Shown one piece after another: positions 391 to 23,940 of a stretch of 24,000 nt of DNA (the stretch's first letter is position 1; each line of letters opens with the position of its first letter). The position numbers and the translations under genes are program-made. A model generated the notes under the pieces. That model was given only the letters and a program-made list of their open reading frames with translations, was not told where the DNA came from and searched no databases. The stretch comes from Phormidiaceae cyanobacterium CTOTU46633 (GTDB taxonomy: Bacteria; Cyanobacteriota; Cyanobacteriia; Cyanobacteriales; Aerosakkonemataceae), in contig DALYJX010000004.1 of NCBI GenBank assembly GCA_031969655.1, forward strand, positions 48,112 to 72,111, given 5' to 3'.

Positions 391-423
391 AACTACGCAT
401 GACCGTTTCCGTATCACGTAGCT
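391..423 (-). ncRNA. Candidate catalytic domain V of the intact intron
   Basis: The minus strand reads AGCUACGUGAUACG-GAAA-CGGUCAUGCGUAGUU. It has an AGC triad at the 5' base, a 9-bp lower helix with wobble pairs, a 2-nt bulge on the 3' strand and a GAAA tetraloop. The upper helix is imperfect. The IEP stop codon UGA lies inside it. Confidence 0.5.
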
Positions 424-5047: not shown

Positions 5048-5153
5048 ATTGATTAGTTCAGTAACCTTAAATCTGTTTAACTGCTAACAACAAAGCCAGG
5101 AACTAGCAACGCATTTAGGGGCTAGAAACTGTAACTTGTTTTCTTTCCACCAA

Positions 5154-5271
5154 GGTGTGATGACTCAACAATCTTCGCTTGAGCGAAAATTGCACGCGGA
5201 AGACGCTTTTTCCAGATCTAACAAGCTAGGGCTAGTTCTTTCTAGGTTTTTCGGAGCGGTGTTATGACTCA
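5154..5271. repeat. Two direct copies of a 14-mer (13/14 identical) in the parA-parB spacer; candidate centromere or operator sites
   Basis: ggtgtgatgactca at 5154-5167 and ggtgttatgactca at 5258-5271, 104 bp apart. A small palindrome, ttcgct-tg-agcgaa (5174-5187), lies between them. Confidence 0.5.
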
Positions 5272-5338
5272 GATAACGGCTCTTATTGGCATAGAGGTCT
5301 GGTAAGTATGGCTTTTATGGCTTATGCCTGAAGCCTCG

Positions 5339-6190: not shown

Positions 6191-6220
6191 GGGGATGAAG
6201 ATTAGGTAGGTAGGTTTTCT

Positions 6221-6354
6221 CAGATATCGATATACAAGGTCACGGTGAAATTATCAGATATCGATATGCAATGCTCTCTAATTTGACCGTATCATACATC
6301 GTTATCCAAAAGACCTGATATAAAATTTTGTAATTGGATATCAATATACAAGGT
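6221..6354. promoter_or_regulatory. Three copies of a ~19-bp repeat with a palindromic ATATCGATAT core upstream of parA; candidate par operator or centromere
   Basis: cagatatcgatatacaaggt at 6221-6240, cagatatcgatatgcaatg at 6255-6273 and ggatatcaatatacaaggt at 6336-6354. They begin 31 bp upstream of the parA start. Confidence 0.55.
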
Positions 6355-6926
6355 TGTATAAACTACCCCATCGGCAGATTGACCGAATACTATAAATTTG
6401 AGCAATGTGATGATGCTTTACCGCAGGGATGGGATGCGATCGCTCGAATGGTTGTGGGAGTGCCGTTCATGGGTGCGGCCTCGTTTGCCGTTCCTGGTCA
6501 GGGCAATTGCACCTATCTTCTGACAACAGACTTTTAACTTGGTGGGAAGTCAGCAATCTTTCTGTAGTCAGTTAAGACAATCTGAGGAATATCGCGATAT
6601 TTTTTTACCTGCCCGCTGACATAAGCATAACCACGACCGCCGATATCTTCAACACCTTGCTTGCGAGCAGCATAACGCTGTCCAATCAGATTGATGATTG
6701 CAATACTTTCGTCTTCAAAACTAACATCTCTAAAGTTAAATTTTCAGTAGCTTAAAAATCAACGATTTATATTGAGACAAAAAACTTACTTACCATCAGG
6801 GAATAATGGCTATCGCCAAGATAGAAAAGATGATTTCATATCAAACTAATCCCAGTTTAATAGTGATGTAGGTGCGATGCGATCGCGCTACATTTGTCCT
6901 CACAATCTAACCCAATATAACCAAAG

Positions 6927-8174
6927 ATGAACCAACTTTTCTATCTTAACACAAATACCTCGAATTCAAACAGTTTACTGGAACTGGTTTGTTTTGAAAA
7001 TCCAGATTTAGAACTAATAGAAGTAGTGGCAGTTTTTGGAACATCACTTCCCAATTCAAAACTGCCAACACAGCATTCCTTTCAGTTAGGCGATATCGTG
7101 ACTCAAGGGCGACAATATGGTATAGTGACTTCCTTAAATGAAACTGACCGACCCGTGACTATTACATGGGATGAAAGCAGTGAATTTGAACCCGATGTCT
7201 TCGCATACACGCTTGACGAAATCCGATTTTTTAATATTTCAATCGTTCCCCAGCTAGTACCCTTCAAAACAATTGTAGAGTTACCAGCGAACATAACAAT
7301 TAAACTAGCTAATACCCAACTCGTAAAGTTTAGTCAGGCGAAATATTTCTTAGTTGAATCTATCACCGATGATTGCTTAATTATCCGTTCGCTTGAGTCG
7401 CGATATTGCTTTACCAAGGAATTATTGCCCGGACGCTTATTTGCTTGTGTCATAGATCTCCCGAACTGTAGGCAAATAGAAACTGCTAGCAGTTTGTCTT
7501 TCCCAAACCTCAAAACAAGGGTAAAACTACATTTAGAGCTATTTTTTAAGGACAATTTGGAATTCCTCACTCCTACAAAGAAACAGCAACTATTTGATGA
7601 GCTAGTTTCGTTACTAGCAGGACAGAATTATGATACTTTTGCTCTAAATGCTGCTTGGGAAGAAGTTTGGAAGCAACAGATTGAAACTTTAGCTCAAGAC
7701 CAAGGTTTTCACGGGATACGACTAGGTGCGCGTATCCTGAGACAGCGAGGTGGTACAGAACTATTCGGAACAATTGTTGAGCTAAATATTGAATTAACAC
7801 GACCTTTTCAAATTCAATGGGATAGTGGAAAACTTCAAAGTTACAGCTTAACTGAACTTAGATGCTTGGGTATTACTCAAATCAAGCCCGTCATCCAATT
7901 ATCGCCAAATGTTGCTTACCAAATCAGCGAAGATGGTTGCTACTTTAAAGCTTGGATTGGCTTTCGCACCAAAGCGTTAGCAAAAGCTTGGTGGCGTTTA
8001 ATCAAACAGCAAGTTGGTTACCTCAGCCACTTGCAAGACTGCTATAGTCCAGAACTTCGGCATACGGATAAACGGTATGAGTATCTGGTGGAAAAGCCTC
8101 GACAGAAAACGTTAACCAAACGTCTAGAGTCTCTACAAAAAGTAGCGGAACTCATTCTAGAACAAATGCCATAA
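6927..8174 (+). CDS. Hypothetical protein with two copies of a ~55-aa module
   Basis: A 415-aa ORF with an ATG start. I recognise no catalytic motifs. There is an internal repeat: LGDIVTQGRQYGIVTSLNETDRPVTITWDE...YTLDEIRF versus LGARILRQRGGTELFGTIVELNIELTRPFQIQWDS...YSLTELRC. Confidence 0.6.
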   Translation: MNQLFYLNTNTSNSNSLLELVCFENPDLELIEVVAVFGTSLPNSKLPTQHSFQLGDIVTQGRQYGIVTSLNETDRPVTITWDESSEFEPDVFAYTLDEIRFFNISIVPQLVPFKTIVELPANITIKLANTQLVKFSQAKYFLVESITDDCLIIRSLESRYCFTKELLPGRLFACVIDLPNCRQIETASSLSFPNLKTRVKLHLELFFKDNLEFLTPTKKQQLFDELVSLLAGQNYDTFALNAAWEEVWKQQIETLAQDQGFHGIRLGARILRQRGGTELFGTIVELNIELTRPFQIQWDSGKLQSYSLTELRCLGITQIKPVIQLSPNVAYQISEDGCYFKAWIGFRTKALAKAWWRLIKQQVGYLSHLQDCYSPELRHTDKRYEYLVEKPRQKTLTKRLESLQKVAELILEQMP

Positions 8175-8176
8175 AC

Positions 8177-8319
8177 GTTAACTAACTCAAGTTGTTAGTT
8201 ACAATTACTAAAGTTATTGATCCCTTTTAAAATAGGGAAACGCTCAAAATTTTCTTTAAAAAGGGGGATGCAAAGGGGAGTGGAAAAGGTTAAGCTTGTA
8301 ACTAGCAACTTAGGTTAAC
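8177..8319. repeat. Imperfect inverted repeat (arms ~22-26 nt) enclosing ~95 bp
   Basis: The left arm is gttaactaactcaagttgttagttac (8177-8202). The right arm is gtaactagcaacttaggttaac (8298-8319), whose reverse complement is gttaacctaagttgctagttac. It starts 3 nt after the stop of the 415-aa ORF. Confidence 0.55.
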
Positions 8320-8424
8320 TAAGAAATATTATCCCTTGCATAATGATTTTTTTCAAGATTCTGGTTGAAAAATAAGCTAACGCTTAATTCGGGAGTTGAT
8401 GAGATGAGCGATTGAGTTAAATCG

Positions 8425-9846
8425 ATGATTCAAAGCTTACTTAACCCTCCCCAGCTAATCCATTCATATTCCTTCGTTCCTAAACCCCAGCAGCAACTAG
8501 CTCTCGATAAAATGAGAGAATTCTTGACGAGTACAGAATCGTTCTTTCTGCTGTGCGGCTACGCTGGAACCGGAAAAAGCAGCATAGTTTTCCAAATTGT
8601 CAAAGAACTCCTACAACAAGGCAAGCGAATTGCTCTTACTGCCCCCACCAATAAGGCTATCGGTATCCTCAAAAAGATGGCAGCCAATCAAGGTATCTTC
8701 GGGGTTGATTTTCTGACTATACACCAGCTATTGGGGTTAGGCATGGTCAGCAAAGAACAAGATAAAGTCCTAGAACAGACTACCTCCAGCAGTCTTCACC
8801 TTTATGACATTATCTTCCTCGATGAATGTTCGATGGTCGGAACTCAATTATGGAACTGGATACAACGGAGTTTTGAAAGAACGCTCTTTAACCACCGCCA
8901 GCTAATTTTAATGGGAGATCCGGCTCAACTTAATCCAGTAGGAGAAAAACGAAGTCCTAGCTTTAGCGTCACTAATCGAGTAGTCCTAACTGAAGTGGTT
9001 AGGCAAGCTGGTGAAAGTCCAGTTCTCGACTTTATCACCTCTTGTCGCAAGGCAGTCAAGAGTAAAACTCCTACCTCATTTTTCCTGCCAAACTCTCAAT
9101 ATAAAAAGGGAGATAAATCCAACGGAGCGTTCAAAGTCAAGTCAGAAACCTTACTGCAATATGCGATTAAAGTCATCAAGCGTAAGTTTGATAACAATCC
9201 CGATTGCTTTAGAATTCTGTGCTGGACAAACAAACGGGTAGACTATTACAACCAGCTGATTCGGAAACAAATCTATAGTTCCACTGCACCCCGATTTGTT
9301 GTAGGAGAAAGATTAATTACCAAAAAGCCAGTAATGGCTCCTGATGGCAAGACAGTAATTTTGCCAACCTCAACCGAATTTACAGTCAAGGAAGTTGAAA
9401 CGAGCTTGCATTATGGCTATCGAGTCTGGCTGCTCAAAATTGCCACCGATGAAGGATTAATACGGCAAATTCTTGTGCTGCACGAATCGGAGAAAAAGCG
9501 CTACGAAGCAGAACTGGAACAGAAGCTTAAAAGTGCCAAGCTCAATCCTTTTATGTGGCGCAAGTACTATTGGTTCAGAGATGATGTATTTGCTGAAGTT
9601 GACAATTGCTTTGCGCTGACAATTCACAATTCACAAGGTAGCAGTTTTGACGAAATAGGGATTGATGGAGATGACCTTTTAACTCGATTATTGATTGGGG
9701 ATGATATGAGCAACCAGGAAAAAATAAAAGAGTACCATCGTCTGTGGTATGTGGGAGCATCAAGGTGTAGGCGACGGCTCTTATTTGTGGCTCCCAAAAA
9801 ACACCGAATTTTGAATGTAACTCGAAAACAGATAAAGCTTTGTTAA
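8425..9846 (+). CDS. SF1B Dda/RecD/Pif1-like DNA helicase (AAA_30-type ATPase)
   Basis: Walker A GYAGTGKSS, Walker B IIFLDECSM, motif III LILMGDPAQLNPV, VVRQ, motif V ALTIHNSQGSSFD and motif VI WYVGASRCRRRL. Confidence 0.85.
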   Translation: MIQSLLNPPQLIHSYSFVPKPQQQLALDKMREFLTSTESFFLLCGYAGTGKSSIVFQIVKELLQQGKRIALTAPTNKAIGILKKMAANQGIFGVDFLTIHQLLGLGMVSKEQDKVLEQTTSSSLHLYDIIFLDECSMVGTQLWNWIQRSFERTLFNHRQLILMGDPAQLNPVGEKRSPSFSVTNRVVLTEVVRQAGESPVLDFITSCRKAVKSKTPTSFFLPNSQYKKGDKSNGAFKVKSETLLQYAIKVIKRKFDNNPDCFRILCWTNKRVDYYNQLIRKQIYSSTAPRFVVGERLITKKPVMAPDGKTVILPTSTEFTVKEVETSLHYGYRVWLLKIATDEGLIRQILVLHESEKKRYEAELEQKLKSAKLNPFMWRKYYWFRDDVFAEVDNCFALTIHNSQGSSFDEIGIDGDDLLTRLLIGDDMSNQEKIKEYHRLWYVGASRCRRRLLFVAPKKHRILNVTRKQIKLC

Positions 9847-10023
9847 GCTGCCAAAAGCATTAAAATTGGCTGCAATAGGATGGTCTTATAAACCATCCAG
9901 ATGTATGACTTGGCTGGGACGTGGGAGAATCATCACTTCAGTTCATTGGAGGGGCAAGCGCTTTTTTGAGTTGTTGCAAGCTGCTGTCGCAGCGAAAGCT
10001 CAGATAATTAAACTGGGCAAATC

Positions 10024-11466
10024 ATGACAAAACCCAAATTCAAAAAAACTGTCACCGTAGAAGCAGATGCTGATTCAATAGTAGCATCTAAAAAAAAGCG
10101 CCCATCAACTACTAAAACCAAGGCTGTAACTGAAGAGAAAGTAAATAGAGACAAAGCTGCCTCATCTCTAACTAACGAATCAGAAACAGTCGCTCCAGAT
10201 AAGGCCGAACAAATTCCCGAATCATTAACCCCAACCGACTCAACTGGAGCTGAAGTTGAAATCATCTGCAATTCCAGAGAATTCAACGATTACATACAGG
10301 CTCTCAAAACCATCATTCCTAACAATAGCACCCATCCTATCTTGTGCAATGTGCTAATTGAAGCAGATGCAGCAGTACAACAATTGTATCTAACAACCTA
10401 TAACCTAGAATTTGGCTTGCAAGTCGGTTTTGATGCCACAGTCAATCAACCAGGTAAACTCACACTTCCTGCACCCATACTTGCTGATATTTTAGGCAAG
10501 TTTCCATCTGGTCGTCTGACTTTAAATAGTCAACTGACGACTTCTAAAGGTAATGAAACTTCCTCGGTTACTGCCACCATGAAGATGTCAGGAAGCCATC
10601 ACGTTCTGCGGGGGCTTTTAAGCGATGAATTTCCTGCTATTCCTAACGTAGAACAAAAGTTGCTTTCTCTCCCTGCCAGTGTATTGCTAGCAGCGCTTAA
10701 AGGTAGTTTATTTGCAGTCAGCTCTGATGAAGTCAAACGTATTATAACAGGCGCTTACTTTCAACTGAGCCACGATAGCGATCGCAGAATCGACCAGTTG
10801 CGAATCTGGACAACGGACGGTCATCGAATCGCAATGATTCTGGGGTTAAGCGAAAGCACTGCTGACCCAAATCCTTTGATTGATTCTCCGGTGCAGTTCA
10901 CTGTCCCTGCAAAAGTCCTCAAGGTGTTAGAGCGCAATGTAAACCCCACTGACCGAATTTCTATCTACTACAATGCCTCGGCTCAAGCTCCGCAAAACTT
11001 TGTAGCTTTCAAATGGAAAAATTGGCGACTAACAAGCCAACTACTAGAGGGACAGTATCCGAATTGCAACCAAATTATCGACCCCTTCCGGAGTCAATTT
11101 AGCCACCAATTGCTGATTGAACGGCTATCTTTGTTAAAAGCTTTAGAACGATTATCAACTCACAGTGACAAGTCCCACGTTACGGTGATTTTAGATTTTG
11201 ACTCGACCCATCAGCAAGTTCAAGCGTCAATTAACAATGCAATCAGTTCCGGTATTGAAGTAATCGATGCCCAAATTAACGGTGGCGACTTTCGGATTAA
11301 GTGCGATATTCGCTACTTGATAGACACAATCAAGGCTATTTCTAACTCAGATGTGCGGATGCTTTTTGCAACACCTACCACCCCAATTTTGATAGTCCCT
11401 TTTGGGACGCCAGCTTCGGGGGAAGCCGCAATCGAGTCGGAGTACGTTATCGCGCCGCAAGAGTGA
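10024..11466 (+). CDS. dnaN: DNA polymerase III beta sliding-clamp paralogue with an ~85-aa low-complexity N-terminal extension
   Basis: From about residue 86 the sequence follows the DnaN pattern: HPILCNVLIEADAAVQQLYLTTYNLEFGLQV...GKLTLPAPILADILGKFP. Length beyond the extension is about 390 aa, and the C-terminus EYVIAPQE resembles the YLIMPV ending of DnaN. Confidence 0.8.
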   Translation: MTKPKFKKTVTVEADADSIVASKKKRPSTTKTKAVTEEKVNRDKAASSLTNESETVAPDKAEQIPESLTPTDSTGAEVEIICNSREFNDYIQALKTIIPNNSTHPILCNVLIEADAAVQQLYLTTYNLEFGLQVGFDATVNQPGKLTLPAPILADILGKFPSGRLTLNSQLTTSKGNETSSVTATMKMSGSHHVLRGLLSDEFPAIPNVEQKLLSLPASVLLAALKGSLFAVSSDEVKRIITGAYFQLSHDSDRRIDQLRIWTTDGHRIAMILGLSESTADPNPLIDSPVQFTVPAKVLKVLERNVNPTDRISIYYNASAQAPQNFVAFKWKNWRLTSQLLEGQYPNCNQIIDPFRSQFSHQLLIERLSLLKALERLSTHSDKSHVTVILDFDSTHQQVQASINNAISSGIEVIDAQINGGDFRIKCDIRYLIDTIKAISNSDVRMLFATPTTPILIVPFGTPASGEAAIESEYVIAPQE

Positions 11467-11505: not shown

Positions 11506-11643
11506 GTAGTTCAAGGCATCGGGGATACGGCGTATAATGATTTCTTTAAGCGTGAGTTTACGATTGCTATCGTGGAAGATTACCAATTAAAGTTGTTGGT
11601 ATATGACGTGGAATCAGAGGTAATTGTTTTATGGAAAAGGTAG
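11506..11643 (+). pseudogene. xisH: xisH 3' fragment (last ~45 codons only)
   Basis: The frame is open only from the TAG at 11503. It reads VVQGIGDTAYNDFFKREFTIAIVEDYQLKLLVYDVESEVIVLWKR*. This matches the XisH C-terminal pattern, and it overlaps the xisI start in the usual xisH-xisI arrangement. The N-terminal ~90 codons are absent. Confidence 0.6.
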
Positions 11644-11966
11644 AAAAGTATCGGGATTGTATCAAAAAAATTCTTTCGGAATATGCTGCCTACAAGCCTT
11701 CCTATGGAGATGTGGAAGTGCAAATTATTTTTGATATGGAACGCGATCGCTATCAAGTTATTCGAGTGGGGTGGGATAATAAACAGCGAGTTTATGGTTG
11801 TTCTATGCATCTCGATATTAAGGATGGCAAGATCTGGATTCAGCAGAATGCAACAGAAATTGATATAGGACAAGAGTTGGTTAATTTAGGTGTGCCTTCG
11901 TCGGATATTGTCGTTGGTTTTCATCCACCTTATATGCGTCAGTTCACAGAATTTGCCGTGAGTTGA
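11631..11966 (+). CDS. xisI: XisI family protein (fdxN-element excision controlling factor-like)
   Basis: A 111-aa ORF, MEKVEKYRDCIKKILSEYA...DRYQVIRVGWDNKQRVYGCSMHLDIKDGKIWIQQNATEIDIGQELVNLGVPSSDIVVGFHPP. I recognise this as the characteristic XisI sequence pattern. Confidence 0.85.
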   Translation: MEKVEKYRDCIKKILSEYAAYKPSYGDVEVQIIFDMERDRYQVIRVGWDNKQRVYGCSMHLDIKDGKIWIQQNATEIDIGQELVNLGVPSSDIVVGFHPPYMRQFTEFAVS

Positions 11967-12469: not shown

Positions 12470-12607
12470 TTTCCACTCTAACCATGTTATTCAATATCTT
12501 TGCAAAAAAATTAGTCATAATCGCTCATTAGCAAGGGTTAATAAAAATTAAAAAATCCTAATCCCCTAGCGGGGAGTTCCAAAGAACTGAACTAAAAACT
12601 TCCAATC

Positions 12608-14104
12608 ATGCACCAACCTTTACCTCTCAAATACCGACCTAAAACGCTACAAGAATTGGTCGGTCAAGACGCCATCAAAACTGCCTTAACCAATGCGATC
12701 GCTTCTGCTAAAATTGCCCCAGCTTATCTGTTTACAGGGCCAAGAGGAACTGGTAAAACCTCAACCGCCCGCATTCTTGCCAAATCGCTCAATTGTCTTA
12801 ATAGCCAAACTCCCACAGCAACTCCCTGCAACAAATGTGCGTCATGCAAAGCAATTGATTCTAGCAACAGTTTGGATGTGAGCGAAATTGATGCAGCTAG
12901 CCATAACGGGGTAGAAGATGCCAGAGAATTAATCTCCCGCAGCAACTTTGCCCCGGCTATGAGTCGGTATCGCGTATCCGTGTTAGATGAATTTCATATG
13001 ACAACGGTTTCGGCTCAAAATGCCCTTCTCAAATGTATCGAAGAACCTCCCCCTCATGTAGTCTTTATTCTGTGTACGACGGAAGCTCATAAGGTACTGC
13101 CAACTATCGCTTCACGCTGTCAAATCTTTAACTTCAAAGCTTTGTCAATCGATGCAATTGTGGGACAATTACACCAAGTGGCTATCAGCGAATCCATTGC
13201 CATTACGGATGAAGCAATAAGCGCGATCGCTCGGCACTCAGATGGCGGTTTGAGAGACGCTTTGCAACTACTTTCCCAACTATCTCTACTTGGAAAAGAA
13301 ATTACAACTGACCATGTTATCGAGGTGTCTGGCGGTATCCGAGAAAGCGACTTAACTACGATAATTCAAGCTATCTGTGCAGGCGATGTGCTGACGGTAT
13401 TGCAATCGGCTAGAACCCTTGTTGATAGCGGCAGGGCACCCAAACTTATCTTGAGTAGCCTGCTGGCAGTTTATCGCGATTTACTGATTGTTAAAAGCGT
13501 ACCCAAAAGTCAGAATGCGATCGCCGGATCTCTCGGTTATTCGCAACTGCGACAAGTTGCTAGCAATCTTGAGTTTGAAACCATTGATGCTGCTTTGATG
13601 CAACTGCACTCGTCAGAAAGTCAACTGAGGGTTACGACTAATGCTGCCACTTGGTTAGAAGTATGTTTGCTCAATTTGATCCAAAATAAGGATCGCCAGA
13701 CGTTCCAAAAGCAGCAAGAAAGCTACCAGCAGCAAAATGGACTCGCCAACAATTTGCACAATAAAGGTAACGTAAAGCAGCAAGAAAGTCACCAACAGCA
13801 AAATGGACTCGCCAACAATTTGCACAATAACGGGACCAAAAATGGCACAACTAAAGACTTGGATGCAGTTTGGACTACTGTTATTGAAGCAACAAAACCA
13901 GCTAATCGCGCACTACTCTCGCGCGCTCAATTAGTGAGTTTAAATAACGGCAAGTGCGTGTTAGCAGTCCACTCCCATGATGCCAGAAAATTTCAAACTC
14001 ACATCGCATCAATTGAGCGCATTGTTAGCAAAGCTTTGGGCTATCCCTTGATGGTTGCAGTTGAACAACGGGAGGAAGTTTTAGCGTCAACGACCCGCCA
14101 CTAA
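12608..14104 (+). CDS. dnaX: DNA polymerase III gamma/tau (DnaX) clamp-loader ATPase paralogue
   Basis: YRPKTLQELVGQ, Walker A GPRGTGKTS, zinc module CNKCASCKAI, Walker B VLDEFH, IEEPPPHVVFILCTTE, SRC motif IASRCQ and sensor 2 GGLRDALQLL. A Q/N-rich linker and a C-terminal domain follow. Confidence 0.9.
   Translation: MHQPLPLKYRPKTLQELVGQDAIKTALTNAIASAKIAPAYLFTGPRGTGKTSTARILAKSLNCLNSQTPTATPCNKCASCKAIDSSNSLDVSEIDAASHNGVEDARELISRSNFAPAMSRYRVSVLDEFHMTTVSAQNALLKCIEEPPPHVVFILCTTEAHKVLPTIASRCQIFNFKALSIDAIVGQLHQVAISESIAITDEAISAIARHSDGGLRDALQLLSQLSLLGKEITTDHVIEVSGGIRESDLTTIIQAICAGDVLTVLQSARTLVDSGRAPKLILSSLLAVYRDLLIVKSVPKSQNAIAGSLGYSQLRQVASNLEFETIDAALMQLHSSESQLRVTTNAATWLEVCLLNLIQNKDRQTFQKQQESYQQQNGLANNLHNKGNVKQQESHQQQNGLANNLHNNGTKNGTTKDLDAVWTTVIEATKPANRALLSRAQLVSLNNGKCVLAVHSHDARKFQTHIASIERIVSKALGYPLMVAVEQREEVLASTTRH
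13711..13842 (+). repeat. Two tandem copies of a 66-bp (22-codon) unit inside dnaX
   Basis: 13711-13776 and 13777-13842 encode KQQESYQQQNGLANNLHNKGNV and KQQESHQQQNGLANNLHNNGTK. The first ~55 nt of each unit differ at 3 positions. Confidence 0.85.
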
Positions 14105-14325
14105 ATCAAAGATTATAGTGGGGGCTTCATAAAAGTCCATAGTTGACCCGCCATTCGTCTTAATTGACTACGTTATCTAGGTCATAGTACCAAAGAATGC
14201 TTCAACAGTTCTTTGCTCTACTGTCAGTCATTAAACGTCCGAGTTGGGTTTAGGCAGTGTGGCTGACATAACAAGCCTAGATAACATTGGCTAGTTGAAC
14301 TTTACCCTAGTAATAGGAGTTTTCA
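14105..14325 (+). ncRNA. Candidate IscB omega RNA (guide plus scaffold) in the 221-nt region upstream of iscB
   Basis: The position and length match the known IscB arrangement, in which the omega RNA lies just 5' of the ORF. A 10-bp long-range helix pairs gttatctagg (14172-14181) with cctagataac (14276-14285). There is a local hairpin, caaagaa...ttctttg (14191-14215), and a further partial gtcag/ctgac pairing. The exact ends are unknown. Confidence 0.5.
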
Positions 14326-15726
14326 ATGTCAAACAGAAACGCAGTATTTGTATTGGATAGCTCGCGCAATCCATGTAATCCAGTGCATCCGGCTGTTGCC
14401 AGAAAGATGTTGTCTCAAGGCATTGCGGCAGTGTTTCGCCAATATCCATTTTCAATTATTTTGAAGGAGGGAAAATGTGATAACCCAAAGCAATTAAGGA
14501 TTAAAATTGACCCTGGTGCGAGGTTCACTGGTTTAGCTTTAGTCTCAGATACCAATATTGTCTGGGCGGCTGAACTAGAACATCGTGGCTTTGCTATCAG
14601 AGACTCTTTGACCATACGACTCCAACAACGCAGAAGTCGCCGCCAACGTAAAACCAGATACCGTAAACCAAGATTTCTTAATCGCCGTCGTCAGGATGGT
14701 TGGCTCCCACCTAGTTTAATGTCTCGCGTTTACAACATTCAAACTTGGGTTAATCGTTTGTGTAAACTTGCACCAGTCTTTGCTATTAGTCAAGAATTGG
14801 TTAAGTTTGACATGCAGAAGATAGTAAATCCTGAAGTTAATGGGATTGAGTATCAGCATGGTGAACTATGGGGTTATGAAGTTAAACAATATTTGCTTGA
14901 AAAGTTTAACCATACCTGTGTTTATTGCGGTGCTACTGACAAACCTTTTAACTTAGATCACTTTCATCCAAAATCTAAAGGCGGTAGCGATCAAGTTAGC
15001 AACTTTGTCTTGTCTTGTGTTGACTGTAACCAGGCTAAAAGTAATAAACTACCTGCTGAGTTTTTGAGCGATCGCCCAGATATTTTTGCCAAAATTGATA
15101 AACAGCGGAAACAGCCGTTAGCTGATGCTGCTGCTGTCAATACTACTCGATGGAAGTTAAAACAGGTTCTTGAATCTCTTGGCTTACCTGTTGAATTAGG
15201 TTCTGGTGGATTAACCAAATATAATCGCCAAAGACTAGGGATTCAGAAAAGTCATTGGGCAGATGCAGTTTGTGTTGGTCATTCTACGCCTAATAGCTTT
15301 AACATTACTGGTTATCAACCGTTGATTATCAAGGCTATGGGCAGAGGTTCTAGGCAAATGGTTAACCCAGATAAATATGGATTTCCTAGAACTAAGCCCA
15401 AACTTAGGCAGAAGGCGTTTTACGGTTTTCAAACTGGCGATATAGTCAAAGCTGTAGTTACCAAAGGTAAAAAGGTAGGCACTTATGTTGGTAGGATTGC
15501 TGTTCGTAAAACTGGCAGTTTCAACATTAAAACTAAAACTGATACTGTTCAAGGTATCAGCCATAAATATTGTCGTATTTTACACAAATCTGATGGCTAT
15601 ACTTACAGTTTTGGTGAAGCTTTAAATCAAAAATCTAGTCAACTAAAACCAAAAGTAACCGAAACTAAACTTAAAGAGTTTCAAGAATTTAAAGGATTCC
15701 AAGGCGAACAATTAAGTTTGTTCTAA
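14326..15726 (+). CDS. iscB: IscB RNA-guided endonuclease (OMEGA system): PLMP-like N-domain, split RuvC, arginine-rich bridge helix, HNH insertion and a C-terminal TAM-interaction-like domain
   Basis: N-terminus VFVLDSSRNPCNPVHPAVARKML...YPFSIIL. RuvC-I is IKIDPGARFTGLAL. The bridge helix is RLQQRRSRRQRKTRYRKPRFLNRRR (RRXRR type), followed by GWLPPSL and QELVKFD. The HNH domain is CVYCGATDKPFNLDHFHPKSKGGSDQVSNFVLSCVDCNQAKSNK. RuvC-III is KSHWADAVCVG. The tail reads FQTGDIVKAVVTKGKKVGTYVGRIAVRKTGSFNI. An AGGAG RBS lies 7 nt upstream of the ATG. Confidence 0.85.
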   Translation: MSNRNAVFVLDSSRNPCNPVHPAVARKMLSQGIAAVFRQYPFSIILKEGKCDNPKQLRIKIDPGARFTGLALVSDTNIVWAAELEHRGFAIRDSLTIRLQQRRSRRQRKTRYRKPRFLNRRRQDGWLPPSLMSRVYNIQTWVNRLCKLAPVFAISQELVKFDMQKIVNPEVNGIEYQHGELWGYEVKQYLLEKFNHTCVYCGATDKPFNLDHFHPKSKGGSDQVSNFVLSCVDCNQAKSNKLPAEFLSDRPDIFAKIDKQRKQPLADAAAVNTTRWKLKQVLESLGLPVELGSGGLTKYNRQRLGIQKSHWADAVCVGHSTPNSFNITGYQPLIIKAMGRGSRQMVNPDKYGFPRTKPKLRQKAFYGFQTGDIVKAVVTKGKKVGTYVGRIAVRKTGSFNIKTKTDTVQGISHKYCRILHKSDGYTYSFGEALNQKSSQLKPKVTETKLKEFQEFKGFQGEQLSLF

Positions 15727-15735
15727 TTTCAAACT

Positions 15736-15769
15736 GAGGAAAGTAGTTTATATGCTGGCTGCTTTCCTC
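15736..15769 (+). terminator. Hairpin downstream of iscB (8-bp stem, 18-nt loop); a terminator or an element-end structure
   Basis: gaggaaag (15736-15743) pairs with ctttcctc (15762-15769). It starts 10 nt after the iscB stop. Confidence 0.35.
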
Positions 15770-15816
15770 TCGACCACTAACATTCGTATAGTGGGAGTCT
15801 CCAGCAGTTATTTCTG

Positions 15817-16776
15817 ATGATTACGCTACTCGTTGGTAACGATACAGAAGCGATTGGGCGAGAACTTGTTGCGTTAAAGGCGCTTCCTCACCCGGTGTGG
15901 CGAGATTTCAACGTGCATCGATTTAGTGCCGAACAATTAAGTGCCGCCCTGTCTGCTGCTTTCTCGGTTCCCTTTGGAGAAGGGAGTAAACTGATTGTTG
16001 TGGAGAATTGCGATTTTAAGCAGTTTGGCGAAACGGGGTTAGAACTTCTTCAACCTTTATCTCAATTGCCTGCAACTACGCATTTGGTATTTATCGCGAC
16101 TTTTATCGATAAACGACTCAAAGTTGCCAAGTATCTGCTATCGTTGGGTAAGCTCAAAGAGTTTACCCTGATTCCACCTTGGCGTATTGATTTAATTGAG
16201 AGTGCGATCGCAACTACTGCTAAACAAATGCAGATCGATATTGCCCGCGATGCTGTCAGCTATCTAGCCGCAGCAATTGGCAATGACACTACCAGAATGG
16301 TAAAAGAACTAGAAAAGCTGGCTATTTTTGCACCAGGCTCGCGCATTACCAAAGCACAAGCAACTGCACTGGTATCAACAACGACAACCAGTAGTTTACA
16401 ACTCGCCCTTGCACTATTAAAAGGTCATGCTGCTGCCGTGATTCGGCTGGTAAACGAGTTGCTATCTCTGGCAGAATTTCCCCTCTGTATTGTTGCTACT
16501 CTGATCGCTCAATTCAAAACTTGGTTGTGGGCGAAAGCGGCACTGAAATCTAAGCGTTCTGATGCTGAGATTGCCACTTTATGCGGGTTGGGTAATCCCA
16601 AGCGCCTGTATTTTTTACGTCTTGAAGTGCAAGGGGTTTCTTTGAGGTACTTATCACAAGCACTTTCGATGCTGTTTGAATTGGAAGTCTTGCTCAAAAG
16701 TGGAGAAAAGTCTGATTTAATCGTGCCAGCATTGCTCAGAATTGTACGATTGAAACAACAAAAGAGCGATGAGTGA
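15817..16776 (+). CDS. holA: DNA polymerase III delta (HolA) clamp-loader subunit paralogue
   Basis: The motifs match my recollection of cyanobacterial HolA: FTLIPPW, IGNDTTRMVKELEKLAIF, SSLQLALALLKG, CIVATLIAQFKTWLW, GNPKRLYFLRLEV and LFELEVLLKSGE. Confidence 0.8.
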   Translation: MITLLVGNDTEAIGRELVALKALPHPVWRDFNVHRFSAEQLSAALSAAFSVPFGEGSKLIVVENCDFKQFGETGLELLQPLSQLPATTHLVFIATFIDKRLKVAKYLLSLGKLKEFTLIPPWRIDLIESAIATTAKQMQIDIARDAVSYLAAAIGNDTTRMVKELEKLAIFAPGSRITKAQATALVSTTTTSSLQLALALLKGHAAAVIRLVNELLSLAEFPLCIVATLIAQFKTWLWAKAALKSKRSDAEIATLCGLGNPKRLYFLRLEVQGVSLRYLSQALSMLFELEVLLKSGEKSDLIVPALLRIVRLKQQKSDE

Positions 16777-16814
16777 AGTTTGGGGAGTAGGAACGATTCT
16801 TGTCCTACTTCTCT

Positions 16815-17225
16815 TCAAGAAAGTTCTTCCTCCCAATCTTCAATTTGTAACCCATTTACTCTACTAAATTCGCCTGTATTATGCGTGACCAGTATTAGGT
16901 TATTCACAAGAGCAATTGCTGCAATCTGCAAATCATAAGGACCAATGGGAGTTCCCAATGCTGCCAATTCTGCCCTAATCCGCCCTGCGACTCTTGCTGC
17001 TCGTGCATCCAAAGGCAGAACAGTAAACCGACTGAAAAACCTTTCCAATATGGCTAAATTTTGTTCTGAATAAGCACTGCGATACGCTCCATAACAAAGC
17101 TCCATTTGAACAACCGTACAGACATAAATATTCTCTGGTTGTTGGGCAGCAAGTCGAGCAACTGCTGCCCGACTGCTATTGTTTATCAGTCGAATACAAA
17201 CATTAGTATCAAGCAGATAGGTCAA
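16815..17225 (-). CDS. vapC: PIN-domain toxin (VapC family)
   Basis: YLLDTNVCI (first acidic residue), VVQMELCYG, and THNTGEF near the C-terminus. Length is 136 aa. The TTG start overlaps the stop of the upstream antitoxin ORF. Confidence 0.8.
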   Translation of the reverse strand: MTYLLDTNVCIRLINNSSRAAVARLAAQQPENIYVCTVVQMELCYGAYRSAYSEQNLAILERFFSRFTVLPLDARAARVAGRIRAELAALGTPIGPYDLQIAAIALVNNLILVTHNTGEFSRVNGLQIEDWEEELS

Positions 17226-17476
17226 AATAGTGGCTCCCTTGTCTCGAACTCACCCTGTTCCGCCCGCTCTAATGGTTCTCCTACCCACCCTCCAATCACC
17301 TCTTCAAAAAAACCAGGAGGCCATCCCAATTCTTCTGGCGTTTTTGCGGGTAGAGGCGCTTCTAGCGGCTGAAAAATTACCATTACTTCTAAATCTTTCT
17401 CTGTAATCCCCACCGGGATTTCTAAATGTAAAATTCCATCGATTCCCACCCGATAGCGGAATTTAATACTTTGCAT
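17222..17476 (-). CDS. Putative antitoxin partner of VapC
   Basis: An 84-aa ORF directly upstream of vapC, overlapping it by 4 nt (start and stop within TTGA). It has an ATG start. The family was not recognised from sequence. Confidence 0.6.
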   Translation of the reverse strand: MQSIKFRYRVGIDGILHLEIPVGITEKDLEVMVIFQPLEAPLPAKTPEELGWPPGFFEEVIGGWVGEPLERAEQGEFETREPLF

Positions 17477-19699: not shown

Positions 19700-20866
19700 T
19701 CAAGACAGCGGCAAAGTAAACCAGAACCGCACGCCTTTACCCAACTCGCTCTCAACCCCAATTTGTCCGCCATGAGCTTCCACAATTTGCCGACAAATAT
19801 AAAGCCCTAAACCCGCTCCAGCACGACGAAGAGCGCTAGTTCCCCGCACGTACAAATCAAACAAGGAAGCACATTCAGTCTCAGGAATACCCACTCCATT
19901 ATCTGCAACAATAACTCGCAACATTGAAGAAGTTGCATCTACCTTGGCATCCAATGTCAGCACAAAACCTGGTGGGTTGTATTTGAGTGCGTTCCCAATC
20001 AAATTTTCAAACACTCGCCACAACTGATCCACATCGGCACTGATATCAGGTAAGTTAGGAGCAATGAGGTAATTGAGGACAACCTGATATTTGGCGAACA
20101 TCGGTTCCCACGCTTTGATAATACGGCTTGTTAAAGCATGGATTGAAGTGGATTGCAAGTTTAACGGGTATCCCGAAACTTCTAATTGTTGCATTTCCAC
20201 TAAAGAATCAATCAGATGGATCTGACGTTTGCAGCTATCGAGCATAACTTCTACAATCTGCCTATTGATGACAACATTTTCTCGAGTTTTATCCAGATAA
20301 CTTTGCAACAACAACGAGGTTCCCGTAACTGGGTTTCGCAAGTCGTGGGAAACCGCGTGAACGAACACTTTCAAACGTGCTTCTGCCTGCTTTCGCTCTT
20401 TGATCTCCTGAGAAAGTTGGACATTTTGTGCCGCCAGTTGCGCGTTAGTAGCCCGAAGTTGCATTTGGCAGCGACACAGTGCTAATTGCTGCTTGACTCG
20501 CGCTAACACTTCAATCGGCTCAAATGGTTTAGTAATGTAGTCCGCACCCCCAACTTCAAACGCTTTTACTTTGTCAAAAACATCATCCACAGCACTAACA
20601 AAAATGACAGGAATCTCCTTCGTGATATCCGATGCTTTGAGCCGTCGGCACACTTCATAACCGTCCATATGTGGCATCCTGATATCTAATAAAATCAGGT
20701 CAGGTACTTGCAGATCGACGGCTTTTAACGCCTCTTCGCCACCGATCGCTTCTCGGACTCGATAGCCCCTTCCAACAAACATTGACGATAGCAGGTAAAT
20801 GTTATCAGGAAAGTCGTCAACTATCAGAATGTCAGGTGGAACTAAGTTTTCACTCACGGCGAACAC
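19700..20866 (-). CDS. Hybrid sensor histidine kinase (N-terminal REC, coiled-coil linker, HisKA, HATPase_c) with no transmembrane or sensor domain
   Basis: REC: [23 protein letters not shown] and ADYITKPF. H-box [14 protein letters not shown]-box IGNALKYN, G1 DNGVGIP, G2 [16 protein letters not shown] start at 20866 (alternative GTG at 20857). Confidence 0.88.
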
Positions 20867-22775
20867 CCCTAATTGCTGTACATTTAAGTTGTTCCCGAAT
20901 TTTGCTTAAAAATATCTCTCCAGCAGCTTTTTGGCTTGATTGCACATCAGCGGTTGTTACTGGGTCGGTAGGGTCGTTGGGATGCGGTAACAATTCATAA
21001 GCAGCGCGAATGCGATTGTCCAGTTCTTCGTCGATGTTGATTGACCGCCCAGTTTGGCGGTCAATTGACTGCTGAATGGCTCGTTTTTCCAGTTGCGGTC
21101 GGATGTGAGTGTCCCACAATGCTTCCGATTCTTTGGCGCGTTTGATGTCGCTAGGTTTTACAGGAATTTTCAAGGGATAGGGAAACAATGCTTCCGTCTC
21201 CGAACCGTAAGCAGGAGAAGTAATGACGCACTTACCTTGGGGAAACCTTAAAATCTCGTCAGCACTAATGAGCGGTTTCTTTTGCAATTGTTCGCTCCAG
21301 TTGACAGAACGACTGGTTTGTTGACCCATTGAGCTACCCGTAGAGCGATTTTTCACCAGTACTTCCACTTCCCCGTAGCGTTTGGAATATTTCTCTGCTG
21401 TGTCAAAATCGCCGGGATTAAACAGCACGTGCGTTGAGAGGGCGCTGGCGATCGCAGCACCCTTTTTATCACCATAAAGGTTGTCTAGTTGGTTCAAACT
21501 TTGAATCCCAACAATCGGTACGCCACCTGCACTGCGATATTCATTTGCCCATTGATCCATTCGGTCAAATTTAAGCGAAGGAAATTCATCGAGGCAATAT
21601 ACGAATGGCTCAGTACGCACCCTGGATAGATTGCTGACAACGCACAAGTGAATCGCCGCTGCTAAAAGAGGCCCGACAACGGCTCGCCTTTGGTCGTCTA
21701 ATTTAAAAATAATGCACTTTTTTCCTTCTAGTACAATCGGAATTGTGCTGCAACCAATAAATGCCCGCAGCAAGTCTTTTTGAATAAAAGCCGAATAGGT
21801 TGCTTCTGCCGTTGCTTTGATACCTGCCACTGTTTTTTCGGCATCTTTTGAACTTAAAAGTTGGGAAAAACTAGAAGCAATCCACCTATCCATTTTTAAG
21901 GGATGACCGTCAGGACGACGAACGGCATGGTCGATACGTTTGACTAAATCTGGCAATTGAATAATTGCATAAATCATTGCTAAATCTGGATAAGGACTGC
22001 TCTTAGCTAGCTGGACTAAACCTTTAGCCATCAACTCCCCAGCTTTCTCAAAAAACTCGTTTCCTTTGCTGTCTCCTAAACTGGCATTACGAGCAATAAC
22101 CGAGCCAATTTCTGCCGCCATCACCGCATCTTGAGCATCTCTCATAAAATCGAGCGGATTAATAACACCCGAATAAGCTTCACCAGGGGCAAATACTTGC
22201 ACATCGTAGCCGTAGCGGACGGCTAAGGGTGCGTGCAGTTTCATTTGGTCGCCTTTTTTGTCATAAATAATGACAGGAAATCCTTGCTGAAATGCACTTT
22301 CTACCAGGCGGTCAATGACGCTAAAAGTTTTACCGCTCCCCGGCGCACCAATTACTAAAATACCGCGTTCTGAGTGGGGAAACCAAACGGTAGGAGACGC
22401 GCCCAGCATCGTTTGCAACTGAGCTATTAAACCCTTCCACTTGCCAGCTAACCAATAAGTTGGCGTACCGCTCCACAACGTCACAGGTTGCCGCTTTTTT
22501 TCTTTCATTTGATTTAAAGCTAGACCCGTCGCTGTCATCTTTTCAGCCGTCCCGCACAAGCGTCCTGAAGTTACTTTACCCTTGCTTGTTCCAACTATTT
22601 TGGAAAAGATGACTAACCCCAGCAATAGCCCTAACATTGCCAGTCCTTCTGGGTTCATAAACTGACCGAATAAGCCCCTAAAATCAACGCCAAATAGTGG
22701 ACGTTTCGGCGGTTGGCTAGCTGTTTGAAGCAAAACAGCTTGAGATTTTTGAGGTAAAAATTGAGATGATTTCAT
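20850..22775 (-). CDS. Type IV secretion / conjugative coupling protein (VirD4/TraG/TraD family)
   Basis: A 641-aa ORF with an N-terminal hydrophobic segment [13 protein letters not shown], Walker [12 protein letters not shown] and a Walker B-like [10 protein letters not shown]. The size and overall layout fit a T4CP. Confidence 0.8.
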
Positions 22776-22944
22776 AGTTTCTTGTTAATTATGTTCAGCC
22801 ATCGTTAGTGTTTGAGAGTGAATGCTTAATCCATTGACAGCATAAATTCATTGATTTTTACGGTTGCAACCAACCTAAATCGCTAATAACTTATCAACGG
22901 CTATCGCCTCTTTAGGAAACAACAGCTAATGGGATTTAAAGATA

Positions 22945-23940
22945 ATGGTTAAAACCAATCCTACCCGCTCTAAAACTCAAGATTCACCAGAAGAAAAACA
23001 AACAAATCAGTTTGAAGTAGACCCCGAATTGCTCAGCCCTGAATACAATCAAACCCGGCGACCTTCCTTGCCTTATGGCATCATCATCAATGACAACCCG
23101 GCTGGTATTTTAATCCCCAATGACCAACTCGTGAAAGCGGAATGGAAACCCATGCCTGCTGAAGAAGAGTTGACCACAGTCGAGCTAACTGAACCTGTCA
23201 GTGGACTATTTCTCGCTAATGTTCGCATCTTAGTGTTAGCCTTTGTGCCTGAGTACATTCGCTACAAAGATATAGAGGAAAATGACGAACTTGCTGGAAC
23301 ATTTGTTGGGTTATATGACGAGTATCGTCAGGTTCTAGATAAGAAAACGCAGGAAGTTTGTTCGGAACACGCGCTGATTTTCCTCAATCCCAAGAACCAA
23401 CCTTTGCATAAAGTCCCCATTGTCGTCCGTTTTAAGAATGTAGCACTCTGGAGTTTCAAGAGTGCGAGAGAAGATTTTTACCGCAACTTGGAAAGGGTAT
23501 TCGCTGATTACTTTGAAGTAGACTACAGCGGCAAGAATGACAAATGGCGCTCCTTGGGTGTTCTCAATATTAAATTCCAAGCTCTCAAAGAAGGAGAAGG
23601 GAAAAATAAGTCCTTTTGCTGCAAAACCTCTAGCATCACTAAGCCAACTTTGGCGAACTTACCTAAACTGTATTTAGGAAATCTTCAACAGAAGAAGATG
23701 GTTTGGGGTCTGCATAACAACATCGCTGGATTTATTGAAGCTGGAGAAGCACAATTGCCAGCTTTGGCTAAGAGTGCAGAACCAGAAGTTCAGGTATTAC
23801 CTCCTGAGAATAGCCATCGGGGTAAAAATAAATCCAAACCTCCGCGCAAAATTCAACAAATTGAGGAAGAAGATGCAGAACTAGAAGAATTAGACAACTT
23901 TGATTCAGCAGAGGTTGAAGTAGAGGCCGAAACTGACTAA
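22945..23940 (+). CDS. Hypothetical protein with a strongly acidic C-terminal tail
   Basis: A 331-aa ORF with an ATG start, divergent from the T4CP gene. A basic patch (HRGKNKSKPPRK) is followed by EEEDAELEELDNFDSAEVEVEAETD. No catalytic motifs were recognised. Confidence 0.55.
   Translation: MVKTNPTRSKTQDSPEEKQTNQFEVDPELLSPEYNQTRRPSLPYGIIINDNPAGILIPNDQLVKAEWKPMPAEEELTTVELTEPVSGLFLANVRILVLAFVPEYIRYKDIEENDELAGTFVGLYDEYRQVLDKKTQEVCSEHALIFLNPKNQPLHKVPIVVRFKNVALWSFKSAREDFYRNLERVFADYFEVDYSGKNDKWRSLGVLNIKFQALKEGEGKNKSFCCKTSSITKPTLANLPKLYLGNLQQKKMVWGLHNNIAGFIEAGEAQLPALAKSAEPEVQVLPPENSHRGKNKSKPPRKIQQIEEEDAELEELDNFDSAEVEVEAETD

What the first reader, a model, noticed from the sequence alone, without database searches (positions are those of the whole stretch)
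14105..15816. IscB (OMEGA) RNA-guided nuclease with a candidate omega RNA inserted exactly between the dnaX and holA paralogues
The 466-aa ORF has the complete IscB architecture. All nuclease motifs look intact: IDPG, QELVKFD, DHFHP...N...CN and HWADAV.

The 221-nt gap between the dnaX stop and the iscB ATG matches the expected size and position of an omega RNA. It contains a 10-bp long-range helix (14172-14181 with 14276-14285) and a local 7-bp hairpin.

No tnpA is present in the window, so the unit is non-autonomous.

Two things make it interesting. It is a seemingly active programmable nuclease, and it has split a clamp-loader operon on a mobile element. If the operon is still functional, holA expression now depends on read-through or on a promoter inside the element.
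Basis: partly seen in the sequence, partly recalled or inferred. Interest (0 to 1): 0.65.

Follow-up and report, generated by a model that had tools for sequence, protein, structure and literature searches.

The report
IscB transposon between dnaX and holA
This is an ordinary, intact copy of a well-known mobile element, an IscB RNA-guided nuclease with its HEARO guide RNA, which landed exactly on the four-base ATGA overlap that once joined two plasmid replication genes.

Summary

**Identity.** ORF 14326-15726 (466 aa) is an IscB nuclease. It scores 418 bits on the NCBIfam guided_IscB equivalog (cut-off 175), and every catalytic residue is intact. The upstream region is a full-length HEARO RNA (Rfam RF02033, 133.5 bits, gathering score 83). 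HEARO is the published IscB omega RNA.

**Corrected boundaries.** Two close relatives that lack the element define its limits. The element is 14086-15816 (1731 bp) with no target duplication. Its left end lies 19 nt inside the present dnaX ORF, not at 14105.

**Insertion site.** The element inserted into the ATGA stop/start overlap of dnaX and holA.
- dnaX now ends in five element-encoded residues (STTRH).
- holA keeps its ATG but has lost translational coupling.

**Guide and TAM.** The inferred 16-nt guide, GGGAGGAAGTTTTAGC (14070-14085), is dnaX coding sequence. The inferred TAM is ATGA, which is also the holA start. In the TnpA convention this reads NTCAT, the same motif as the tested GstIscB TAM, TTCAT.

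**Other points.** No tnpA is in the window, which is the norm for iscB.

**Verdict.** This is a textbook non-autonomous IS200/IS605-type OMEGA element. The kind is already known, and interest is low to moderate.

The parts
14086..15816 (+). Whole non-autonomous IS200/IS605-type IscB element (1731 bp, no target-site duplication).
   Evidence: Homology with five related elements starts at GTCAAC (14086) and ends at ...TTATTTCTG (15816). Empty-site relatives L100 and L104 read ...GGGAGGAAGTTTCAGC|ATGATTTCGC across the junction.
14070..14085 (+). Inferred omega RNA guide, GGGAGGAAGTTTTAGC. It is the 16 nt of dnaX coding sequence immediately 5' of the scaffold and lies outside the element.
   Evidence: The position follows from the published IscB omega RNA architecture, in which the guide is 5'-adjacent and outside the transposon boundary. 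The sequence is unique in the window at up to 3 mismatches. The 16-nt length is assumed from characterised IscBs.
14086..14318 (+). Omega RNA scaffold. The HEARO match covers 14086-14305, followed by a 3' GNRA-loop hairpin at 14306-14317 that overlaps the iscB Shine-Dalgarno AGGAG (14315-14319).
   Evidence: Rfam RF02033 scores 133.5 bits against a gathering score of 83, over model positions 1-211 of 211. In an alignment of 11 loci, 38 of 55 pairs show compensatory changes. The MFE fold reproduces the consensus with z = -3.45.
14094..14124 (+). Imperfect subterminal hairpin, CCCGCCACTA...TAGTGGGGG. It lies inside omega RNA stem P1 (14086-14091 with 14142-14147) and is the candidate TnpA-binding hairpin of the 'RE' end in the TnpA convention.
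   Evidence: DNA fold. The same CCACTA/TAGTGG core is present at the other end of the element. This hairpin is part of the HEARO consensus.
14172..14285 (+). Long-range helix, 14172-14181 with 14276-14285. It encloses the 7-bp hairpin 14191-14197 with 14209-14215 and a third stem.
14326..15726 (+). iscB CDS, 466 aa. Key residues are RuvC D62, E157, H310 and D313; HNH H212, N226 and N235; and zinc-binding Cys 198, 201, 231 and 234.
   Evidence: Pfam RRXRR 4.9e-66 plus HNH. NCBIfam guided_IscB scores 418 bits against a cut-off of 175. Alignment to OgeuIscB places D62 at D61 and E157 at E193. These residues are invariant or nearly so in 114 homologues. dN/dS against relatives is 0.12-0.15.
15736..15797 (+). 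Two hairpins at the distal end, the 'LE' end in the TnpA convention. The first is GAGGAAAGTAGT...GCTGCTTTCCTC (15736-15769). The second has the core CCACTA...TAGTGG (15774-15794) and extends to CTC/GAG (15769-15797).
   Evidence: DNA fold. This stretch is conserved in L012, L017, L006 and L007.
15817..15822 (+). Inferred TAM and target motif, ATGA(TT). On the opposite strand it reads AATCAT. It is also the holA start codon and, before insertion, held the dnaX TGA stop.
   Evidence: The right flank I assigned by eye, the first ATGA beyond the conserved end, begins with ATGA in 11 related elements; 1 more has ATGG and 3 could not be placed. Empty sites show the ATGA overlap. The tested GstIscB TAM is TTCAT.
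12608..14104 (+). dnaX-like gene, 498 aa. Its last 19 nt, encoding (A)STTRH plus the stop, come from the element.
   Evidence: Uninterrupted relatives are 493 aa and end ...EEVSA*.
15817..16776 (+). holA-like gene, 319 aa and intact. It is now separated from dnaX by 1731 bp.
   Evidence: TIGR01128 holA scores 172.6 bits. It is 94% identical in amino acids to the L100 holA, with dN/dS 0.29.

Best explanation
Window 14086-15816 is a non-autonomous IS200/IS605-family OMEGA element. It carries an HEARO-type omega RNA scaffold and an intact iscB gene.

**Shown.**
- The element inserted, without target duplication, into the ATGA stop/start overlap that coupled a plasmid-borne dnaX to holA.
- Insertion gave DnaX a 5-residue element-encoded tail.
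- Insertion placed the omega RNA, iscB and holA one after another on the same strand.

**Inferred from the published mechanism of IscB elements.**
- Transcription coming from dnaX reads across the element boundary.
- This produces an omega RNA whose 5' guide is the last roughly 16 nt of dnaX before the junction (GGGAGGAAGTTTTAGC).
- IscB loaded with this RNA recognises that sequence only when it is followed by the TAM ATGA. That arrangement occurs only at an empty or excised site.
- IscB cuts both strands there with its RuvC and HNH domains.
- Recombinational repair from an occupied plasmid copy restores the element.

The occupied site is immune because the scaffold (GTCAAC...) replaces the TAM. 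Movement to new sites needs a Y1 TnpA supplied in trans. holA must now be expressed by read-through and independent initiation at its own ATG.
For: **Protein.**
- NCBIfam guided_IscB equivalog: 418 bits over the whole profile, against a cut-off of 175.
- Pfam RRXRR plus HNH.
- Solved IscB structures are the best PDB sequence hits.
- Catalytic D62, E157, H212, N226/N235, H310 and D313 and the four zinc cysteines are present, and they are invariant or nearly so in 114 homologues.
- dN/dS is 0.12-0.15.

**RNA.**
- A full-length HEARO hit above the gathering score.
- The same RNA sits at the same spacing upstream of 14 of the 19 relatives scanned.
- 38 of 55 pairs covary.
- Fold z-score is -3.45.

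**Boundaries and insertion.**
- Homology breakpoints among related elements.
- Two empty-site relatives with conserved downstream synteny.
- A more distant empty site with the same ATGA overlap.

**TAM.**
- ATGA follows the element end in 11 related insertions.
- GstIscB was shown to use TTCAT next to the element end.
- DtIsrB uses NTGA.

**Mechanism.** Meers et al. showed the donor-joint cleavage model, the RE-bounded HEARO, the guide outside the element, the dependence on upstream transcription and the rarity of tnpA.
Against: - No expression, processing or cleavage data exist for this copy.
- No TnpA is visible in the 24 kb, so current mobility is unknown.
- The exact protein was found only at this one locus, so there is no evidence of recent transposition.
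- The guide length (16 nt) and the 5' end of the RNA are assumed from other IscBs.
- The TAM is inferred from flanks, not assayed. One related element (L017) has ATGG rather than ATGA at the expected place.
- No promoter or terminator call in the region exceeds the chance level. The routes of omega RNA and holA expression therefore remain inference.
Confidence: 0.7

Rival explanations
1. The element is a stranded, effectively immobile insertion. No compatible TnpA exists in the host, so excision never occurs and the nuclease has no empty site to cut. iscB is intact only because the insertion is recent or drift has been slow.
For: - No tnpA lies in the window.
- The exact protein is seen only at this locus.
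- The measured dN/dS reflects the history of the whole lineage, not selection since this insertion.
Against: - Both ends, both subterminal hairpins, the RNA and every catalytic residue are intact.
- Lack of a linked tnpA is the norm for iscB, at about 1.5% linkage.
- Other elements in this clade show damaged ends (L016, L006), so decay is visible where it has happened.
Confidence: 0.2
2. The insertion is retained because it benefits the plasmid. The nuclease destroys competing sibling plasmids that carry the uninterrupted dnaX-holA junction, so it acts as a plasmid-competition or addiction device rather than only as transposon self-preservation.
For: - The guide plus TAM match the uninterrupted junction of related plasmids with 1 mismatch (L100) and 2 mismatches (L104).
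- The host replicon looks like a conjugative plasmid, with ParA/ParB and a T4SS coupling protein.
Against: - This is a side effect of the standard mechanism, and nothing in the sequence distinguishes it from that.
- The mismatches lie in the TAM-proximal half of the guide.
- There is no experimental support.
Confidence: 0.07
3. The ORF is a protein-only HNH homing endonuclease, and the upstream structured RNA is a cis-regulatory leader. This was the view of HEARO before 2021.
For: - The HNH domain is present.
- The 3' hairpin of the RNA overlaps the iscB ribosome-binding site.
Against: - The protein has the full IscB architecture, including the split RuvC domain.
- HEARO RNAs have been shown to be the guide RNAs of IscB.
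Confidence: 0.02

Closest known systems
GstIscB / ISGst5 of Geobacillus stearothermophilus (Meers et al., 10.1101/2023.03.14.532601)
   Same: - A non-autonomous IS200/IS605-type element.
- A HEARO-type omega RNA bounded by the transposon end, with the guide 5' and outside the element.
- The same TAM core: TTCAT there and NTCAT here (ATGAN on the iscB strand).
- Insertion downstream of, and co-oriented with, a gene.
   Different: - The host here is a cyanobacterial plasmid.
- No functional data exist for this copy.
- This copy sits exactly on a stop/start overlap of two replication genes.
OgeuIscB (PDB 7utn, 7xht, 8csz)
   Same: - The same domain order.
- The catalytic residues align: D62 to D61, E157 to E193, the DH motif of HNH, and the H..D motif of RuvC III.
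- The omega RNA lies upstream.
   Different: - The relationship is distant, with a phmmer E-value of about 1e-18.
- From my own knowledge, the OgeuIscB TAM is NWRRNA, not ATGA.
- The protein here carries a C-terminal extension of about 37 aa shared only with its close relatives.
HEARO RNA, Rfam RF02033 (Weinberg et al. 2009, from my own knowledge)
   Same: A full-length match above the gathering score, in the canonical position upstream of an HNH/RRXRR ORF. HEARO is common in cyanobacteria.
   Different: Nothing of note. As Meers et al. remarked, the Rfam model stops short of a 3' hairpin, which is present here at 14306-14317.
DtIsrB (PMC9581776)
   Same: A related OMEGA effector with an omega RNA and an NTGA TAM.
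   Different: IsrB lacks the HNH domain and only nicks. The protein here has an intact HNH domain.

Membership tests
IscB (OMEGA RNA-guided endonuclease; NCBIfam NF040563) | Whole-protein match to the curated equivalog model above its cut-off. | tested here: met
   418.3 bits against a cut-off of 175, covering profile positions 1-314 of 314. Pfam RRXRR scores 222 bits.
IscB (OMEGA RNA-guided endonuclease; NCBIfam NF040563) | Split RuvC domain with its catalytic D, E and H..D residues. | tested here: met
   D62, E157, H310 and D313 align to the OgeuIscB catalytic positions. They are invariant or nearly so in 114 homologues.
IscB (OMEGA RNA-guided endonuclease; NCBIfam NF040563) | HNH nuclease inserted in RuvC, with its catalytic His/Asn and zinc cysteines. 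| tested here: met
   Pfam HNH at residues 198-241. H212, N226, N235 and C198/C201/C231/C234 are conserved.
IscB (OMEGA RNA-guided endonuclease; NCBIfam NF040563) | C-terminal TAM-interacting domain. | not tested
   Residues from about 320 to 430 are conserved among homologues. No structure prediction or fold comparison was run.
IscB (OMEGA RNA-guided endonuclease; NCBIfam NF040563) | Guide-RNA-dependent cleavage of double-stranded DNA next to a TAM. | not testable with these tools
   This needs biochemistry. The guide and TAM are inferred only.
HEARO / IscB omega RNA (Rfam RF02033) | Covariance-model score at or above the gathering score, over the full model. | tested here: met
   133.5 bits against 83, model positions 1-211 of 211, E = 6e-28.
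HEARO / IscB omega RNA (Rfam RF02033) | Secondary structure maintained by compensatory changes, and a position directly upstream of iscB. | tested here: met
   38 of 55 pairs show changes on both sides across 11 loci. The RNA ends about 20 nt before the ATG, here and in 14 of the 19 relatives scanned.
IS200/IS605-family transposable element | Insertion without target-site duplication, next to a short conserved motif. | tested here: met
   The left and right flanks rejoin exactly into the sequence of the empty sites. ATGA flanks 11 related elements.
IS200/IS605-family transposable element | Subterminal imperfect hairpins at both ends. | tested here: met
   CCACTA...TAGTGG hairpins, each with a bulge, lie at 14094-14124 and at 15769-15797. 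These are predictions only.
IS200/IS605-family transposable element | Mobilisation by a Y1 (HUH) TnpA, in cis or in trans. | not testable with these tools
   No ORF of 100 aa or more in the window gives a Y1_Tnp hit. The rest of the genome is not visible. Only about 1.5% of iscB genes have a tnpA nearby.

The most novel reading that the evidence does not exclude
An ATGA TAM may steer this clade of IscB elements onto start codons and onto ATGA stop/start overlaps inside operons. Such a site automatically gives a co-oriented downstream gene and, within operons, a transcribed upstream gene that supplies the guide. This would offer a sequence-level cause for the published orientation bias of iscB insertions.

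On multicopy conjugative plasmids, the same geometry would make the element behave as a gene drive against uninterrupted sibling plasmids.

Among 25 loci examined, about 9 have the TAM's ATG serving as the start codon of a co-oriented gene. Two of these sit between parA and parB.
Probability: 0.3. Interest if true: 0.4.

Novelty: already known. Interest (0 to 1): 0.2.

Why it matters
**For annotation.**
- The last 19 nt of the 'dnaX' ORF are transposon sequence.
- The true element boundaries are 14086 and 15816.
- holA has been uncoupled from dnaX.

**As a natural example.** With empty-site relatives available, the locus gives an unusually clean prediction of guide, TAM and target for an uncharacterised IscB: guide GGGAGGAAGTTTTAGC and TAM ATGA. 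This can be tested directly in a cleavage assay.

**Beyond that.** It adds nothing new in kind. IscB with HEARO has been a characterised system since 2021. It has curated Rfam and NCBIfam models and is annotated routinely on cyanobacterial plasmids.

Tried and rejected
- **Plasmid megablast.** Megablast of 12600-16800 against plasmids found nothing. Only the more sensitive blastn gave distant hits.
- **Protein scans of genome and metagenome contigs.** They returned only 6 and 8 loci. Most comparators came instead from exact-protein look-ups.
- **Viral-contig scan.** A scan with the conserved end motif GTCTCCARCARYTATTT gave 55 hits, but none carries an IscB, so all were chance matches.
- **Other copies of the exact protein.** A look-up found only this same locus, in several assemblies. 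Other copies of this same element could therefore not be used to define its ends; related elements and empty sites were used instead.
- **Promoter and terminator scans.** Results were at chance level and were not used as evidence.
- **Literature search.** A search for 'HEARO' with 'ATGA' returned irrelevant papers.
- **Readings considered and rejected.**
  - A degraded or inactive IscB: all catalytic residues are intact.
  - A protein-only HNH homing endonuclease.
  - ATGA being part of the element rather than flank: the empty sites carry ATGA, and it is the holA start codon.
Full report
**1. Observation**

The window holds an ORF at 14326-15726 on the + strand, 466 aa long. It lies 221 nt downstream of the stop of a dnaX-like gene (12608-14104) and 90 nt upstream of a holA-like gene (15817-16776).

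- IDPG at aa 61.
- QELVKFD at aa 156.
- DHFHP at aa 211.
- CVYCG at aa 198 and CVDCN at aa 231.
- HWADAV at aa 310.

The 10-bp helix 14172-14181 with 14276-14285 is a perfect duplex. A 7-bp hairpin lies at 14191-14197 with 14209-14215.

**2. Identity of the protein**

- Pfam gives RRXRR (E = 4.9e-66, full length) plus HNH.
- NCBIfam gives the equivalog 'RNA-guided endonuclease IscB' at 418 bits against a cut-off of 175, over the whole profile.
- The best solved-structure relatives by sequence are IscBs: TbaIscB at 3e-38, OgeuIscB at about 1e-18, and HfmIscB.
- In the OgeuIscB alignment, D62 matches D61 and E157 matches E193. The DH of 'LDHFHP' matches the HNH catalytic histidine region, and H310/D313 match the RuvC III 'DHYLDA' motif.
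- Among 114 full-length homologues, the zinc cysteines, N226, N235, H310 and D313 are invariant, and D62, E157 and H212 are each present in all but one or two.
- dN/dS against four relatives of 80-85% identity is 0.12-0.15.

Nothing suggests inactivation.

**3. Identity of the RNA**

- Rfam's HEARO model (RF02033) matches 14086-14305 over its full length, at 133.5 bits against a gathering score of 83 (E = 6e-28).
- Of 19 related loci scanned, 14 carry the same RNA at the same distance from the start codon.
- In an alignment of 11 of these RNAs, RNAalifold recovers the HEARO architecture.
- The single-sequence fold reproduces the same structure, with z = -3.45.
- A further small GNRA-loop hairpin (14306-14317) lies beyond the end of the Rfam model and overlaps the iscB Shine-Dalgarno sequence. 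It also covaries. Meers et al. had noted that RF02033 lacks downstream elements.

HEARO is the published omega RNA of IscB.

**4. Boundaries and insertion site**

Aligning the flanks of related elements shows where homology begins and ends. The relatives used were L012, L016, L017, L006 and L007.
- Homology begins exactly at GTCAAC (14086).
- Homology ends at ...GTCTCCAGCAGTTATTTCTG (15816).

A search with the dnaX product found relatives of 91% and 89% identity that are 493 aa long rather than 498 aa. At those loci:
- dnaX overlaps holA by four bases.
- In L100, the same downstream genes follow as in the window: a PIN toxin, its 84-aa partner and a response regulator.

The junctions read as follows:
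- L100: ...GGGAGGAAGTTTCAGC|ATGATTTCGC
- L104: ...GGGAGGAATTGTTAGC|ATGATAACGC
- Window, left: ...GGGAGGAAGTTTTAGC|GTCAAC...
- Window, right: ...TTTCTG|ATGATTACGC

The element is therefore 14086-15816 (1731 bp). It inserted without target duplication into the ATGA overlap. A more distant plasmid, from Oscillatoria nigro-viridis PCC 7112, has the same gcagcATGAtta overlap.

Consequences:
- The last 19 nt of today's dnaX ORF are element sequence.
- DnaX gained the tail STTRH.
- holA kept its own ATG but lost translational coupling.
- holA is intact: 94% identical to the L100 protein, with dN/dS 0.29.

**5. Ends and TAM**

Both ends carry an imperfect hairpin with the same core, CCACTA...TAGTGG. 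These lie at 14094-14124 and at 15769-15797. This is what is expected of IS200/IS605 ends.

The right flank, taken as the first ATGA I could see beyond the conserved end, begins with ATGA in the window and in 10 related elements. One more has ATGG, and 3 could not be placed.

On the other strand this reads NTCAT. Meers et al. found experimentally that GstIscB and its TnpA both use TTCAT next to the element end. They also place HEARO at the end that is 'RE' in the TnpA convention. DtIsrB uses NTGA.

The reconstructed empty site therefore presents a 16-nt match to the sequence immediately 5' of the scaffold, followed by a 3' TAM. This is the geometry IscB requires. The occupied site lacks the TAM and so is protected.

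**6. Mechanism**

Shown here:
- The element's anatomy and its exact insertion.
- Intact catalytic residues.
- A conserved, covarying RNA.

Inferred from published work on homologues:
- The guide is transcribed from outside the element, by read-through from dnaX.
- IscB with the omega RNA cuts the empty or excised joint.
- Recombination with an occupied copy restores the element.
- Mobility needs a TnpA supplied in trans.

Other points:
- No ORF of 100 aa or more in the window resembles a Y1 transposase. This is normal, since only about 1.5% of iscB genes have a linked tnpA.
- Promoter and terminator scans were at chance level. How holA and the omega RNA are expressed remains inference.

**7. 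Context**

The window looks like part of a conjugative plasmid of a filamentous cyanobacterium. It carries:
- ParA and ParB.
- A helicase.
- dnaN-, dnaX- and holA-like genes.
- XisI.
- A PIN toxin pair.
- A T4SS coupling protein.
- A group II intron.

Similar dnaX-holA modules occur on many cyanobacterial plasmids. IscB genes are also common there and are already annotated as such. Whether these replication genes are 'paralogues' of chromosomal copies cannot be checked from 24 kb.

**8. Comparison with known systems, and novelty**

Every defining feature of IscB, HEARO and IS200/IS605 ends that could be tested was met. Cleavage activity, TnpA dependence and the TAM-interacting domain were not testable or not tested.

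This is a member of a known, curated and experimentally characterised kind. What is specific to this copy:
- The clean empty-site reconstruction.
- The ATGA stop/start overlap serving as the TAM.
- The 5-aa tail added to DnaX.

**9. Side result**

I examined 25 IscB loci: the window, 10 relatives and 14 annotated plasmid loci.
- Most have ATGA at the expected place.
- In about 9, that ATG is the start codon of a co-oriented gene.
- In two, IscB sits between parA and parB (L087, L105).

If only intergenic ATGA sites are tolerated, a fraction of roughly a quarter would be expected anyway. That figure is my own rough estimate, so the enrichment is modest. The pattern could contribute to the orientation bias reported by Meers et al., but this has not been established.

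**10. Verdict**

The kind is already known, so I score interest at 0.2.

Noticed in passing
window 15817-15820; L012 3984; L019 3003; L087 3031; L105 2160; L106 2231; L111 2223; L113 2190; L116 2169: In about 9 of 25 IscB loci examined, the ATGA that follows the element end is also the start codon of a co-oriented downstream gene. IscB sits between parA and parB in two of these loci (L087, L105). A few loci show GTGA in place of ATGA (L112, L114). The enrichment over a rough expectation for intergenic ATGA sites is modest.
   Followed up: partly
window 333-2375 (- strand): A group II intron. Its reverse transcriptase/maturase/HNH ORF is at 414-2375, and Rfam Intron_gpII (domains V/VI) matches 333-426.
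   Followed up: no
window 3911-11466 and 20850-23940: A plasmid-like backbone:
- ParB (3911-5047) and ParA (5339-6190).
- A RecD/PIF1-like helicase (8425-9846).
- A dnaN-like clamp gene with an N-terminal extension of about 75 aa (10024-11466).
- A T4SS coupling protein (20850-22775).
- DUF5895 (22945-23940).

Together with dnaX and holA, the plasmid encodes its own clamp and part of a clamp loader. Many cyanobacterial plasmids in PLSDB do the same.
   Followed up: partly
window 13712-13828: DnaX contains a 22-aa period tandem duplication, QQES[YH]QQQNGLANNLHN, at aa 369-385 and 391-407. It lies in the linker before the C-terminal domain and is also present in the empty-site relative L100.
   Followed up: no
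window 11631-11966 and 16815-17476: An XisI-family gene with no obvious XisH partner lies at 11631-11966. A VapC/PIN toxin (16815-17225, - strand) overlaps an 84-aa putative antitoxin (17222-17476, - strand).
   Followed up: no
L088 and L089, 1-1611: In these two loci, a group II intron reverse-transcriptase ORF overlaps the start of an IscB homologue of 84% identity. Rfam Intron_gpII matches just inside the called iscB ORF, and no HEARO is detected. This suggests that an intron disrupted the omega RNA end of that element.
   Followed up: no
L016 about 3920-4000; L006 about 2250-2290: Two related elements have one damaged end. In L016, the distal end is replaced by CCAACCTAC-type repeats. In L006, the first strand of omega RNA stem P1 is missing.
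   Followed up: no
L001 4413-5368 (NC_019764.1): On Oscillatoria nigro-viridis plasmid pOSC7112.04, holA is frameshifted and is annotated as two CDSs.
   Followed up: no
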